Of a stretch of DNA of 64,000 bases, positions 1,854-45,943 are shown piece after piece. The notes under the pieces are model-generated. The model had not been told where the DNA came from. It did no database searches and saw nothing but the letters and a program-made list of their open reading frames with translations. The translations under genes were made by a program, and so were the position numbers. How positions within the stretch are numbered: position 1 is the first letter of the stretch; every line of letters begins with the position of its first letter. This stretch comes from Dictyostelium discoideum (Eukaryota): NCBI GenBank assembly GCA_000004695.1, contig CM000151.3, positions 4,000,001 to 4,064,000 of the forward strand, in the 5' to 3' direction.

Positions 1854-3873
<2,020 letters not shown>

Positions 3874-4148
3874 TTTTAACAAAATAAAATGAATTTTTTT
3901 TTTTTTTTTTTTGTCATATGTAAAATTTTTATTTTTTTATTTTTTTTTAAAAGAGAAGCGAATTTATGGGATAATAATAAAATAACTTGGAAACTTTTTA
4001 TTGGTGATAAAATAATAATAATAAATATATAATTAAGATACTTTTTTTATTTATTTCTTAATTATATATTTATTATTATTATTTTATTATTTCCTTATTT
4101 TTTTTTTATTTTATATATTTTTATATTCTTTTTACATTTCTTTATTTA

Positions 4149-4189
<41 letters not shown>

Positions 4190-4220
4190 TTAATTATATA
4201 ATATAATATTATAAATTTGA

Positions 4221-6226
4221 TTATTTTTGAACTAAAATTGAAGTACCACCTTTAAATTTAGAATTTTTAAATTGTGGTATTTTATTAACTTCCCAATTGA
4301 TTTTATTTGAAAGGTTTTCATCCAAAATATTTGAAATATCTAATGTGTAGATATCATCTATTGATTCTTTTGTGACATTATTATATCCACCTAAAATGTG
4401 AACTATCCTTTTCGAAGAATCAAAAATTATAGAATTACCATTTATCATCATTGGTTTTGGTAATAAAAGATTTTGTAGACCACCACCACTATCACCATCA
4501 TCATCATCATCATCATCATGATTATTGGTTAAAACTGACCAACTATTATCTAAAAGATCATATCTTTGAATTATTGATAAACATTTATTCTCTTTTGAAT
4601 TGTAACCACCTAAAACGTAAATATAATGTTCTTGATCATCATAGAAAACACCAGCACCATAACAACTGACTGGTAATGGAGATAAGGTAGTAAAACTATC
4701 ATTATCAATATCATAACGTTCAAGTGTATCAACTGATTGTCTAGTTATATTACAACCACCAATTAAATAGATTGAATTATTATCTTCTTTATAAATTGCA
4801 CCCATACTCCAAAGATTTCTTGAAGATGTTGTAGATTTGGATTGCTGTTTTGAAAATTGTTCAGTGATAATATTAAATTTTAAAATTGATGTCGATCTTT
4901 GGGAATCCACCAATTAAATAAATATTTTGTTTACCATCAAATACTGAAACAATGTAAAAATCTACCATTATCTGGAATTTCAATATTACCATTGGCACCA
5001 TTAGCACCATTATTATTATTATTATTATTATTGTTTGTTTCAATAATCTCCCATTGGTCTTCTAATAAATTATATTTTAATATACGAGTTGGTTGTAATG
5101 AGCCACCAAATAGATAAATATGATTCTTTCCATCGAAATTACCAGTGAAATCATTATCCATTATTGATGGTATCGATTGTAATGATCTCCATAAACCTTG
5201 TTTAAAATCAAATTTTTCAATTGAATATTGGTCGAATCCATCCTTACATTTTCCACCAATTGAATAAATACATTTTGTATCTTCTAAATTTGAATTCAAT
5301 CTTTTATATTCCAAAGTTTCAATAATTTTAAATTTTAATTTTCCAAATATTTTTAATTTTTTATTTGATTTCATTTTTAAACTATCACCATTATTATTAT
5401 TCTCACAATTATCAAAATCATCTTTATTATCATTATTATTATTATTATTATTATCATAGTCATCTGTATCATCATTATTATTTGAAAATTCTTGAAATTT
5501 TTTATTTAAATCATCAAAACTTTTAAAACTACTATTTAATATTAAATCTGAAGCCATTGATGAAATTGGTTTTGGTTGTTTAATTATTTTTCTATTGGTT
5601 GTATTATTCTCTTGAAATTCATCTTTCCAATCCCATTCAATATATGATATTGATTCTTTTAAAACTTGTAAATAATCAGTTTGAAATGAAGTTGACTTTT
5701 TTAATGGTGATGTCATTGGATTGTTATTATTATTATTAGTGACCATTAATGATGATGTTGAATAATTTAAAGGTGATGAAGCGAAACCTGATGATGCTGA
5801 TAAATAATTTGATAAATTACCACTATAACTTGTACTATGTGATAATCCACCACCACCACCACCGCTAAATACTACTCCTCCACTACCACCGCCACCACTT
5901 GAATTAATATTAATATCAAATTTTGAAGGTGAATTCATTTTCTTATTTAATTGTTCAATTAACATCATTGATTTATCTCTATTTGATTCAATTTGTTGTT
6001 TATGTGCTTCTAATTCTTCACCTAATTGTTGAAGTAATTCAATCTTTCTATCTGTAAGATAATTTATAATTGTATCGAAATCTTGACAAATCTTTTTCTT
6101 TGTTTCTATAAATGATTCATCACATCTTTCCAAGGTTTGTTCGCTAATATCCTTGTAGATTGATAATTTTTCAATGGTATTTCTCCAATGATCATTTAAA
6201 TTTTTAAATTCTTCATTTTCTATCAT
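4221..6226 (-). CDS. Kelch-repeat (beta-propeller) protein with an N-terminal coiled-coil and Ser/Gly-rich region. Best model: complement(join(4221..4786, 4945..6226)) with a 158-nt intron 4787..4944. Alternatively it is frameshifted or a pseudogene.
   Basis: ATG at 6226. Kelch blades are marked by IYSIGGKC, HIYLFGGS, IYLIGGCN, IYVLGGYN and HILGGYN, with W/Y residues at the expected spacing. ORFs 4937..6226 and 4221..4913 lie in different frames. A GTATTT donor at 4944 and an …ataaag acceptor at 4787 restore a textbook blade, IPDNGRFLHCF|KDNNSIYLIGGCN, and give a total CDS of 1848 nt (divisible by 3). Confidence 0.55.
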
Positions 6227-7290
6227 TCTAAAAATAAATAAATAAATAAATAAAATTTATATATATATATATATATTTCTATTTCTAAAATTTTCGGTTT
6301 AAATATATAATATATATAATTATTAATTGTGTGTTTATTATTTTATTTTTATTATTATTAAAAAAATGTTTTTACAATATTTTATTTTATTTTATTTTAT
6401 TTGAATATTACAATTATTTATTAATCTATAGATTTTTTTTTTTTGTATTTTATAAATATAAAAAATAAGTTAGAGATTAAGCATGGAGGAAAAAAAAAAA
6501 AAAAAAAAAAAGTTGTAAAAAAGCAGTAATCGTGTTTGTCCCAACAATTTTAAAAAAAACAAAAAAACAATAAAAAAAAATCTTTTTTTTTTTTTTTTTG
6601 TTGTTGGGTTTTTTTATATTTTTTTATTTATTTATTTATTTTTTTTTTTTTGAGGATTTTTTAGTATTATTATTATTATTATTTTTTTAATAAATATTTT
6701 TTTAGTTTTCTTTTTTTTTATACTCACTTTTGTTTATTATTTTCTTTTAATTATCATGAATTATTGTTTAATTTTTATTTTATTTTTTATTTTTCTTTTA
6801 TTAAAATTTTTTTTTTTTTTTTATATAATTTTGTGGTTTTTATATTTTTCAAACTGTATTACATATTTTCACCACACAATGCTTATGTTGTATTAAAGTG
6901 TGTGGGGTGTATTTATGTATGATATACGTATGTGAGTGGTAATGAAATTTTTTTGTGGTTATATATAAATATTTCCCATTTAAACCCCATTTTTTAATTT
7001 TTATATATTTTTCTTAATTTAAAAAAAAAAATAATAAAAAAAAAAAAAAAAAAAAAAAAAAATCACCAATGGTGATATGATTATTCTAAAAAAAGCCACA
7101 AATATTTACATAAACACAAAAAATTATTTATTTTTTTTATTTTAAGAAAATCCATTTTTTTTTTTTTTTTTTTTTTTATAAATTAATACACGATTAGAAA
7201 TATTTAAATAGATTTCGATTACTATTAATTTTAATAATTATTAATTTAAATTTTTTAATTTTATTTTAAATATATATATTTAAAAATATT

Positions 7291-7719: not shown

Positions 7720-7754
<35 letters not shown>

Positions 7755-9014: not shown

Positions 9015-9423
9015 TTTATTTGTTTAGGTTTAAAAATTTTAATACAATATATATATAAAAAAAAAAAAAAAAAAAACTAATTAAAAAAATAAAAATAAAA
9101 AAATAAATTAAAAAAAAAAAAATTAAAAAAGAGGCGCTAAAAAAAAAAAAAAAAAAAAATTTATATGTATGTTGGGGCAACATACTAATTAAAAATATTA
9201 TTTTCAATTTTTTTTTAAAAAAAAATAAAAATAAAAATAAATAATAAATAATTTATTATTTTCCAGGAAAATTGAAAAAAATAAAATAATATATTTTGAT
9301 AATAATAATAATAAATAAAAATATAAACATTATGTAATTGTTTTTTAAAATTAAATTTGTTTAGATTTTTTCAAAATCTGTGAAATTTATTTTATTTTTA
9401 TTTTATTTTATTTTTTTTTTTTA

Positions 9424-44789: not shown

Positions 44790-45943
44790 TCATGGTACAA
44801 CAACAACATTTGCACCATTAACTAGATTTTGATTTTGATTTTGAATTTGGTGTGGTTGCTGATGATGATTATGATGATGATTATGTTCATTATCTTTTTT
44901 TAATAAATTTGAAGGTAATAAACTCTCCAAAATACAAAAATAATGGAATAAAGTACCAGCGGATACGAAAAGATGCCAAACGGCATGATTGAAAGGAGCA
45001 GTTTCCCAAATTAAGAAACCAACACCACCAGTATATGTAATACCACCTGATACTAAAAGTTTTAACCCTTTTTGTGGTAAATTTTTAATTAAATCCTTTA
45101 ACCCAATCACTGATACCCATCCCATTAATAAATAAAAGCTATTCGATATGATATCTGGTACTCCGTTTGCACCCAATACTAATTTACTACCAACTCCAAG
45201 TACACACATTGCCCAAATTAAAACAAACATTGCCCATCCAATTTTAACTGCTTTTGCTATTGGTGTTTTTATTTTTTGTTGTTGTTGTTGTTGTCCCCCG
45301 TTAATCATTGGTTGATTGGAAGAACTACTACTATTGTTGTTGTTATGATTTAAATTATTATAAACTAAATTGATTAGGGTCAATGGTGTGTAGGTACCTG
45401 CTATTAACATATAAATTGCACAATGATCTAAATCCTTAAAGAAATTTCTATACTTTTGAAGATGAATTATATCAACAGAATGATATAAAGTCGAGCAAAA
45501 GTACATTGTCATCTAAATTTAATTAAATAATGAAAAAAAAAAAAAAAATCAAATATTAATAATTAAATTACACACCCCCCACTGACACACATAAAATAAA
45601 ATAAAAAAATAAATAAAAATAAAAATCTATCTAATTATCTTATTTATTTTTTTTTTTTTTTTTGTTCTGTTGTGTTTTTTTATTTTTTATTTTTTTTTAT
45701 TTTTTATTTTTTTTTACTTACAAGTGTGATACCATAAATTGTACAAGATACTACATGCCATTTTGAACCCTTCATTCTAGCTAATGATAATAAAAAAAAG
45801 ACAGCTGGTATACAAAGAAGTAAACCAATACCATGTGAAAGAGAATTTAAAACTTCTTCACTGTATGTTTGAACCTCTGGACCATCATTCAAAAACAATG
45901 CTGCTTCATTATTTTCTACTAGTATATCTGTTGAATTAATCAT
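44790..45943 (-). CDS. Hemolysin-III / PAQR (adiponectin-receptor) family 7-TM protein, 2 exons: complement(join(44790..45512, 45722..45943)); 314 aa.
   Basis: Family motifs: …LNSLSHGIGLLLCIP…GSKWHVVSCTIYGITL | MTMYFCSTLYHSV…LDHCAIYMLIAGTYTPL…NHAVWHLFVSAGTLFHYF. A GTAAGT donor lies at 45721 and an aaatttag acceptor at 45513 (209-nt intron, which contains a C-rich cacaccccccactgacacac element). Confidence 0.8.

What the first reader, a model, noticed from the sequence alone, without database searches (positions are those of the whole stretch)
4787..4944. Kelch gene: frame break spanned by a 158-nt segment that itself looks like a decayed Kelch blade
The upstream and downstream Kelch ORFs are in different frames. 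Splicing GTATTT(4944)…AG(4787) yields a perfect blade (IPDNGRFLHCF|KDNNSIYLIGGCN). Yet the removed 158 nt is only ~70% AT, atypically GC-rich for a Dictyostelium intron. In two further frames it encodes Kelch-like peptides (SVFDGKQNIYLIGGF and STSILKFNIITEQFSKQQ…WSMGAIY) that mimic the neighbouring blade (ILKYNLLEDQWEII). It is either an intron born from a duplicated, then frame-decayed, exon segment (intronization), or the gene carries two frameshifts (a pseudogene or assembly error).
Basis: seen in the sequence. Interest (0 to 1): 0.55.

Follow-up and report, generated by a model that had tools for sequence, protein, structure and literature searches.

The report
Two reference-sequence frameshifts, not an intron
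The supposed 158-base intron is ordinary, strongly conserved coding sequence for one blade of a six-bladed Kelch protein; the reading frame breaks only because this reference sequence carries two extra single bases, which the Dictyostelium database curators had already patched.

Summary
On the minus strand, a 429-codon ORF (6226..4937) and the downstream Kelch ORF (..4221) are in different frames. Removing GT(4944)..AG(4787) joins them in frame.

The interpretation as an intron fails. Deleting one T from the run at 4947-4949 and one A from the run at 4898-4900 gives a 667-aa protein. That protein is identical to the curated AX4 protein Q86J11.2 (DDB_G0274267).

A published list of dictyBase "tiny introns", which are artificial fixes for genome-sequence errors, has two 1-bp entries at chr2:4004947 and 4004899 (minus strand). 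These are exactly those two bases, so the window is AX4 chr2:4,000,001-4,064,000.

Three other D. discoideum assemblies and three sister species have an uninterrupted, intron-free gene. Nine orthologues across Dictyostelia keep the blade. pN/pS inside the segment is 0-0.09. The segment has exon composition (27% GC, against 9-12% in non-coding flanks).

The AlphaFold model has six four-stranded blades, and the segment is essentially blade 3. All differences between the window and its closest relative (probably AX2-214) are private to the window. They are about 1000-fold too dense for laboratory mutations.

Verdict: reference sequencing errors, or less likely real AX4 mutations. Already known, low interest.

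The parts
4221..6226 (-). Coding sequence of the Kelch repeat protein DDB_G0274267 (UniProt Q86J11). It is 667 aa once two extra bases are skipped, and a single exon in all relatives.
   Evidence: The translation after removing one T and one A is identical to P0013 = Q86J11.2 / XP_002649180.2. Gene lengths in the six related loci equal 3 x (aa+1), so there are no introns.
4947..4949 (-). First frameshift site.
   Evidence: Pairwise and 4-way alignments. The dictyBase curator 1-bp 'tiny intron' chr2 4004946-4004948 (-) corresponds to window 4947.
4898..4900 (-). Second frameshift site. The run reads AAA where every other assembly has AA (one extra A), shifting frame B to frame C.
   Evidence: The dictyBase curator 1-bp 'tiny intron' chr2 4004898-4004900 (-) corresponds to window 4899, with the same parent model DDB0304412.
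4787..4944 (-). It is coding sequence for residues V428-K479 (plus the first base of E480). That covers most of Kelch blade 3, its loop, and the first strand of blade 4. It is not an intron.
   Evidence: Fifteen columns invariant across ten sequences fall in it: D430 I435 Y436 L437 G440 F441 P442 L448 F450 N451 T454 F457 L471 W472 Y478. pN/pS is 0-0.09. GC is 27% against 8.5-11.7% in non-coding flanks.
4845..4966 (-). Kelch blade 3 (about G421-Q460): four beta-strands, RFLHCSVF / NIYLIG / SILKF / EQFSK.
   Evidence: In the AlphaFold2 model of the orthologous allele P0001 these are strands E421-426, E431-436, E444-448 and E453-457. P0001 numbering is AX4 numbering minus 3 in this region. Block pLDDT is about 70-80.
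4224..5275 (-). Six-bladed Kelch beta-propeller domain (about residues 318-667).
   Evidence: Pfam Kelch_1 E=8.7e-23, Kelch_6 2e-18, Beta-prop_ATRN-LZTR1 2.8e-19. There are 24 strands in six groups of four plus a closing strand. Foldseek matches whole six-bladed Kelch domains: KLHL2 2xn4_A at E=7e-17 and target TM 0.84, plus KLHL3, KLHL12 and KEAP1.
5936..6214 (-). N-terminal long helix (residues 5-97), probably a coiled coil.
   Evidence: DSSP helix H5-97 in the model, block pLDDT about 70-79. There is only a sub-threshold TRIM_CC hit (E=0.21).
5045..5046 (-). Third window-private discrepancy in the same 149-bp stretch. The window reads TT where all other assemblies read AA, giving Ile394 instead of the Lys found in all group-4 relatives.

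Best explanation
The 158-nt segment is normal coding DNA. With the few bases upstream of it, it encodes blade 3 and the first strand of blade 4 of the six-bladed Kelch beta-propeller of DDB_G0274267, an intron-less gene.

The reading frame appears broken because the AX4 chromosome 2 reference sequence, which this window is (chr2:4,000,001-4,064,000), contains two extra single bases 48 nt apart. One T is added to a TT run (4947-4949) and one A to an AA run (4898-4900). Each shifts the frame by +1.

These are most likely base-calling errors in a locally poor stretch of the 2002-2005 Sanger assembly. A TT-for-AA discrepancy lies 97 nt further upstream.

The cell almost certainly makes an ordinary colinear mRNA and a 667-aa protein. 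dictyBase curators already encode this by putting two artificial 1-bp 'introns' at exactly these bases.

Shown:
- the two extra bases and their positions;
- identity of the repaired translation to the curated protein;
- the curator fixes at these positions;
- conservation and purifying selection in the segment;
- the six-blade fold.

Inferred: that the extra bases are sequencing errors rather than real AX4 mutations.
For: (1) Removing one T and one A yields a protein identical to Q86J11.2 / XP_002649180.2.

(2) Singh et al. 2017 (PMC5282741), Additional file 3, lists dictyBase-curator 'tiny introns' of length 1 at chr2 4004946-4004948 (-) and 4004898-4004900 (-), both with parent DDB0304412. 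The authors argue that such sub-5-bp introns are artificial constructs compensating for genome-sequence errors, and they demonstrate this with RNA-seq for clcD and DDB_G0279477.

(3) The coordinate mapping is confirmed independently. Two further listed sites, chr2 4044790-92 (3 bp) and 4058617 (1 bp), fall in the window on an in-frame TGA and on a frame switch respectively.

(4) Over the 2-kb gene, the closest assembly (L001, GCA_054883475.1) differs from the window only at 5046-5045, 4949 and 4900.

(5) In a 4-way 8-kb alignment, both gene indels and all 7 substitutions separating the window from L001 are private to the window. Two assemblies about 4% diverged agree with L001 every time, a 7:0 split.

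(6) L001 is 0.11% from the window. It comes from a project that sequenced the lab strain AX2-214 plus wild isolates chosen for genetic distance, so it is probably AX2-214. Even harsh NTG mutagenesis gives only 13-34 variants per 34-Mb genome (PMC5052037). About 1 difference per kb therefore cannot be laboratory-lineage mutation.

(7) All six related genes are single-exon. The blade is present in nine orthologues, with 15 columns invariant across the ten aligned sequences falling inside the segment. pN/pS there is 0-0.09.

(8) Segment GC is 27.2%, close to the median D. discoideum CDS GC of 28.35% (PMC4683709). Adjacent non-coding DNA is 8.5-11.7% GC.

(9) The model has six four-stranded blades and matches six-bladed Kelch domains at target TM 0.79-0.85.
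Against: - No AX4 genomic or RNA reads could be inspected here, so the extra bases have not been shown directly to be absent from AX4 DNA.
- The strain identity of L001 (AX2-214) is inferred from the paper's strain list, not read from the record.
- Singh et al. did not discuss this particular gene individually.
- Two independent overcalls plus a dinucleotide miscall within 149 bp is an unusual error density, unless the stretch rested on a single poor read.
Confidence: 0.88

Rival explanations
1. The two extra bases are real mutations of the AX3/AX4 laboratory lineage. The gene is then a very young strain-specific pseudogene in AX4, making a truncated 429-aa protein with two Kelch blades, and the curated 667-aa protein describes the ancestral state.
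For: The reference sequence as deposited carries them. AX3 was derived by chemical mutagenesis (my own knowledge). No AX4 read data could be examined.
Against: - Window-private differences occur at about 1 per kb across 8 kb, including intergenic DNA, with none private to L001.
- NTG mutagenesis gives about 1 variant per Mb (PMC5052037). The spontaneous rate is 2.5e-11 per site per generation (abstract of PMC7466956, listed).
- The substitution spectrum is mixed and not NTG-like.
- Three lesions cluster in 149 bp of an otherwise identical 2-kb gene.
- Curators chose to read through.
Confidence: 0.09
2. The 158-nt GT(4944)..AG(4787) piece is a genuine spliceosomal intron created by intronization of an exon segment. 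It gives a 615-aa protein with a chimeric blade and five blades in all.
For: GT..AG boundaries exist and their removal restores the frame in register with the blade repeat.
Against: - 21 alternative GT..AG pairs restore the frame too.
- The donor GTATTT departs from the Dictyostelium GTAAGT consensus (my own knowledge).
- GC is 27%, like exons and unlike the 9-12% non-coding DNA nearby.
- The segment is base-identical to functional alleles apart from one inserted base.
- The gene is intron-less in all relatives.
- Splicing would delete four strands of a six-bladed propeller.
- The 615-aa product is absent from a 15-billion-protein collection.
- The curated model does not use this splice.
Confidence: 0.01
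3. Both frameshifts are real and are bypassed at expression level, by programmed +1 ribosomal frameshifting or by transcriptional slippage at the short T and A runs.
For: Both sites are homopolymer runs.
Against: - The runs are only 3 nt long.
- No relative carries the frameshifts, so there is no conservation of a recoding signal.
- Two such events 48 nt apart in one gene would be unprecedented.
Confidence: 0.005

Closest known systems
dictyBase curator 'tiny introns' (<5 bp) that compensate for AX4 reference-sequence errors, e.g. clcD DDB_G0278639 and DDB_G0279477 (Singh et al. 2017, BMC Genomics 18:120, PMC5282741)
   Same: This locus is literally in that list: two 1-bp entries on chr2 minus strand at 4004947 and 4004899, parent DDB0304412. 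The purpose is the same, to keep a conserved domain in frame across a suspected reference error.
   Different: RNA-seq proof of the error was shown by the authors for other genes, not for this one.
Six-bladed Kelch beta-propeller domains (KLHL2, KLHL3, KLHL12, KEAP1; Pfam Kelch_1 PF01344)
   Same: There are six four-stranded blades with the GG / Y / W repeat signature. Foldseek gives E about 1e-16 to 1e-17 and target TM 0.79-0.85.
   Different: There is no BTB/BACK module. The N-terminus is a long helix followed by about 200 low-complexity residues. Sequence identity to solved Kelch domains is only 14-19%. Its function is unknown.
Intronization (de novo intron from former exon sequence), as described in nematodes and other eukaryotes (my own knowledge)
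   Same: Former coding sequence is bounded by GT..AG, and its removal keeps the frame.
   Different: The sequence is still under purifying selection as coding sequence in all relatives, has exon composition, and has no transcript support. The test failed.
Strain-specific unitary pseudogene
   Same: There are two frameshifts and a premature stop in the deposited sequence.
   Different: There is no further decay, and the lesions are clustered along with other reference-private differences. This points to errors rather than mutations.

Membership tests
Spliceosomal intron of Dictyostelium | GT...AG boundaries whose removal restores the frame | tested here: met
   GT 4944 and AG 4787, 158 nt, in frame. 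This is non-specific, because 21 alternative pairs do the same.
Spliceosomal intron of Dictyostelium | Non-coding composition, much more AT-rich than exons | tested here: not met
   The segment is 27.2% GC and the flanking exons 24.5% and 26.5%. Local non-coding DNA is 8.5-11.7%. Median CDS GC is 28.35% (PMC4683709).
Spliceosomal intron of Dictyostelium | No protein-coding constraint on the sequence, and an intron or nothing at the same place in orthologues | tested here: not met
   Orthologues encode the same 52 residues as exon, with 15 columns invariant across the ten aligned sequences. pN/pS is 0-0.09. The genes are intron-less.
Spliceosomal intron of Dictyostelium | Absent from mature mRNA | not testable with these tools
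   No Dictyostelium RNA-seq or EST data could be reached. The spliced 615-aa product is not in the protein collection.
Curated reference-sequence error (dictyBase tiny intron) | The curated gene model skips 1-4 bases at the site to keep the frame | tested here: met
   GFF entries chr2 4004946-48 and 4004898-900 (-), length 1. The curated protein equals the translation with those bases skipped.
Curated reference-sequence error (dictyBase tiny intron) | Independent sequence of the same lineage lacks the lesion | tested here: inconclusive
   L001 is 0.11% from the window and lacks both bases, and all differences are private to the window. That L001 is the NC4-derived strain AX2-214 is inferred. 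AX4 reads themselves were not seen.
Kelch-repeat beta-propeller | Significant matches to Kelch profile HMMs | tested here: met
   Kelch_1 scores 79.9 bits (cut-off 20.1). Kelch_6, Kelch_4 and Kelch_2 are also above their cut-offs.
Kelch-repeat beta-propeller | Closed propeller of six four-stranded blades | tested here: met
   There are six groups of four strands plus a C-terminal closing strand. The domain superposes on full six-bladed domains at target TM up to 0.85. The model has moderate confidence: domain pLDDT is mostly 60-90, pTM is 0.50 overall because of disordered regions, and the alignment holds only 9 sequences.
Pseudogene | Disabling lesions accompanied by relaxed constraint or further decay | tested here: not met
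   Two frameshifts are present, but the rest of the segment is identical to intact alleles. The whole gene differs from L001 at only one other place.
Programmed ribosomal frameshift | Frameshift site conserved in relatives | tested here: not met
   No relative has either frameshift.

The most novel reading that the evidence does not exclude
AX4 really carries both extra bases, and the cell partly rescues the gene by splicing out the 158-nt GT..AG piece. That would be an intronization event caught at birth in a laboratory strain, producing a five-bladed Kelch variant.
Probability: 0.01. Interest if true: 0.55.

Novelty: already known. Interest (0 to 1): 0.04.

Why it matters
It matters only as housekeeping. 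It illustrates that the AX4 reference still contains single-base errors that break conserved genes. Naive ORF or intron reading of the raw sequence will produce false introns or pseudogenes at the 119 curated 'tiny intron' sites, three more of which were checked in this window's range. If the lesions were real, AX4 would lack a Kelch protein conserved across all Dictyostelia, which would matter to users of that strain. The evidence points the other way.

Tried and rejected
- An exact look-up of the curated AX4 protein in the assembly index found no record. This is expected, because no gene caller can derive it from the frameshifted DNA. The AX4 record itself could therefore not be fetched.
- A literature search for DDB_G0274267 found nothing.
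- The spliced 615-aa model, the 429-aa upstream ORF and the downstream ATG-started ORF are all absent from the 15-billion-protein collection. No annotation or transcript assembly supports those products.
- The Eichinger et al. 2005 genome paper is not held. Intron composition was therefore judged from local non-coding DNA and a published CDS median instead.
Eight other species served instead.
- No Logan or RNA-seq-derived fragments of the gene appeared among the hits or cluster members, so transcript evidence could not be obtained.
- Programmed frameshifting and intronization were considered and rejected on conservation grounds.
- A second structure prediction, of the spliced five-blade product, was judged unnecessary.

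Full report
**Observation.** The gene lies on the minus strand.
- A 429-codon ORF runs 6226..4937 and stops at TGA 4939-4937. The rest of the Kelch sequence continues to 4221 in the +2 frame.
- The hexamer GTATTT begins at 4944 and an AG ends at 4787. The interval is 158 nt, and deleting it gives one open frame reading ...GRFLHCF|KDNNSIYLIGGCN....
- The interval is 27.2% GC. The flanking coding parts are 24.5% and 26.5% GC. The adjacent intergenic DNA is 11.7% (6227-6900) and 8.5% (3881-4220) GC.
- The other two frames of the interval encode SVFDGKQNIYLIGGF and STSILKFNIITEQFSKQQ...WSMGAIY.

The GT..AG pair itself carries little weight, because 7 donors x 3 acceptors near the break (21 pairs) restore the frame equally well.

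**What breaks the frame.** Frame A passes to frame B, and frame B to frame C, each by +1. Deleting one T from the run at 4947-4949 and one A from the run at 4898-4900 gives an uninterrupted 2004-nt ORF. Its 667-aa product is identical, residue for residue, to P0013. That entry is UniProt Q86J11.2 / XP_002649180.2 / EEU04128.1, 'Kelch repeat-containing protein DDB_G0274267' of D. discoideum AX4. The curated reference protein therefore already reads straight through the supposed intron.

**How the curators did it.** Singh et al. 2017 (PMC5282741) inspected all dictyBase gene models. They found 119 'introns' shorter than 5 bp in 102 genes. For clcD and DDB_G0279477 they showed with RNA-seq that these compensate for errors in the genome sequence. 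They argued that none of the 119 is genuine.

Their Additional file 3 lists two entries with parent DDB0304412:
[quoted passage not shown] If the window is chr2:4,000,001-4,064,000, these are window bases 4947 and 4899, one base in each of the two runs I had identified independently.

Two further entries of the same table fall in the window's range and confirm the mapping:
- chr2 4044790-92 (3 bp) coincides with an in-frame TGA at window 44792-44790. That TGA ends a 240-codon ORF and is followed in frame by a run of 17 Thr.
- chr2 4058617 (1 bp) coincides with a frame switch just after a long (AAT)n run.

**Relatives.** It also returned three further D. discoideum assemblies.

All of them contain the blade. 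Inside the 52 residues of the segment, 15 columns are invariant across ten sequences: D430 I435 Y436 L437 G440 F441 P442 L448 F450 N451 T454 F457 L471 W472 Y478.

DNA was fetched for six of them (L001-L006). In each, the gene length equals 3 x (aa+1), so the gene is a single exon.

Across the 45 alignable codons of the segment, synonymous differences greatly outnumber non-synonymous ones. For example, D. discoideum versus D. firmibasis shows 17 synonymous and 4 non-synonymous differences. pN/pS ranges from 0 to 0.09 over all species pairs. The three other D. discoideum assemblies are base-for-base identical to the window in this stretch once the extra bases are removed. The segment is not 'decayed'.

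**Structure.** Pfam finds Kelch_1 (E=8.7e-23) and related families. An AlphaFold2 model of the allele P0001, built with the nine-sequence alignment, gives a long N-terminal helix (5-97), about 200 disordered residues and a C-terminal beta domain. The domain has six groups of four strands plus a closing C-terminal strand.

Strands E421-426, E431-436, E444-448 and E453-457 form blade 3. E472-476 is the first strand of blade 4.

That amounts to exactly one blade, in register. This explains why the junction looked like 'a perfect blade': the result would be a five-bladed product.

Foldseek aligns the domain over entire six-bladed Kelch propellers, including KLHL2, KLHL3, KLHL12, KEAP1 and designed SAKe6 proteins. 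E-values are 1e-17 to 1e-15 and target TM 0.79-0.85. Model confidence is moderate: domain pLDDT is mostly 60-90, from only 9 sequences.

**Error or real mutation?**
- Over the 2-kb gene, the closest assembly (L001, GCA_054883475.1) differs from the window at only three places. These are TT/AA at 5046-5045, the extra T and the extra A, all within 149 bp.
- Over 8 kb, the window and L001 differ by 0.11%. Both are 4.1-4.5% from L002 and L003.
- At all 7 substitutions and at both gene indels that separate the window from L001, L002 and L003 agree with L001. Every difference is private to the window and none is private to L001.
- These assemblies come from Holland et al. 2025 (PMC12745789). That project sequenced the NC4-derived lab strain AX2-214 plus wild isolates deliberately chosen for genetic distance. 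By elimination L001 is most probably AX2-214. This is an inference, because the accession-to-strain link was not visible.
- Even harsh NTG mutagenesis introduces only 13-34 variants per 34-Mb genome (PMC5052037). About one private difference per kb is therefore roughly a thousand times too dense for laboratory-lineage mutation, and it fits local inaccuracy of the Sanger-era reference.
- Nanopore homopolymer under-calling cannot explain the TT/AA state. Six independent assemblies agree, the runs are only 2-3 nt long, and the result is the conserved open frame.

I put about 0.9 on sequencing error, about 0.09 on real AX4 lesions, and about 0.01 on any splicing or recoding mechanism.

**Comparison with known things.**
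- The locus is a member of the published set of dictyBase 'tiny intron' corrections.
- The protein is an ordinary six-bladed Kelch propeller, with a non-BTB N-terminus and unknown function.
- Intronization was tested and failed on composition, on conservation and on the absence of an intron at this position in every relative.
- A pseudogene reading fails for lack of any further decay.
- A programmed frameshift fails because no relative has the shifts.

**Verdict.** The matter is already known and handled in the curated annotation, so interest is low.

**Not done.**
- No AX4 read data or transcripts could be examined.
- The AX4 record could not be fetched.
- No paper mentions the gene by identifier.
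- The decisive check is simply to look at AX4 genomic and RNA reads across chr2:4,004,880-4,005,060.

Noticed in passing
window 5045-5046 (-): The window reads TT where L001, L002 and L003 read AA, giving Ile394 instead of Lys. Lys is present in all group-4 relatives and in P. violaceum. This third window-private discrepancy lies 97 nt upstream of the first extra base. It suggests a locally poor stretch of the reference, and the curated protein keeps the Ile.
   Followed up: partly
window 44790-44792 (-): An in-frame TGA ends a 240-codon ORF (45512..44790). It is followed in the same frame by 17 Thr and further ORF. It coincides with a dictyBase 3-bp 'tiny intron' (chr2 4044789-4044793, parent DDB0349337). 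This is probably another reference error, or a real stop that curators read through.
   Followed up: partly
window 58617 (-): There is a frame switch immediately after a long (AAT)n Asn-coding run, in a gene starting MEESVSNNGGSGGGG.... It coincides with a dictyBase 1-bp 'tiny intron' (chr2 4058616-4058618, parent DDB0306205).
   Followed up: partly
window 1739, 6856, 6927, 6980, 7338; length differences at 1394-1422, 1835-1837, 2637-2642, 4175-4184, 6922, 7032-7040, 7746-7752, 9063-9076: Further differences exist between the window and the closest assembly L001. All five substitutions are private to the window (L002 and L003 agree with L001). The rest are homopolymer or microsatellite length differences. 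Together they suggest about 1 questionable base per kb in this part of the reference.
   Followed up: partly
L002:1-8016 and L003:1-8019: Two assemblies labelled D. discoideum are 4.2-4.5% mismatched to the window over this 8-kb locus, and 2.2% to each other. By contig counts and sizes they are probably OT3A and CR116C of Holland et al. 2025. That is far above the mean within-species gene diversity of 0.003 quoted in bioRxiv 10.1101/2025.10.22.684067. Part of the excess may be misalignment of AT-rich intergenic repeats.
   Followed up: no
window 2385-2940: A long trinucleotide-repeat tract gives poly-Ile, poly-Leu and Ser-Leu ORFs in several frames on both strands. It lies downstream of the neighbouring gene and is presumably non-coding microsatellite.
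   Followed up: no
window 5936-6214 (-): The N-terminus of the Kelch protein is a single predicted helix of about 93 residues, with a sub-threshold match to the TRIM coiled-coil family (PF25600, E=0.21). It is followed by about 200 low-complexity residues. This is a coiled-coil plus Kelch architecture without a BTB or B-box domain, conserved across Dictyostelia.
   Followed up: no
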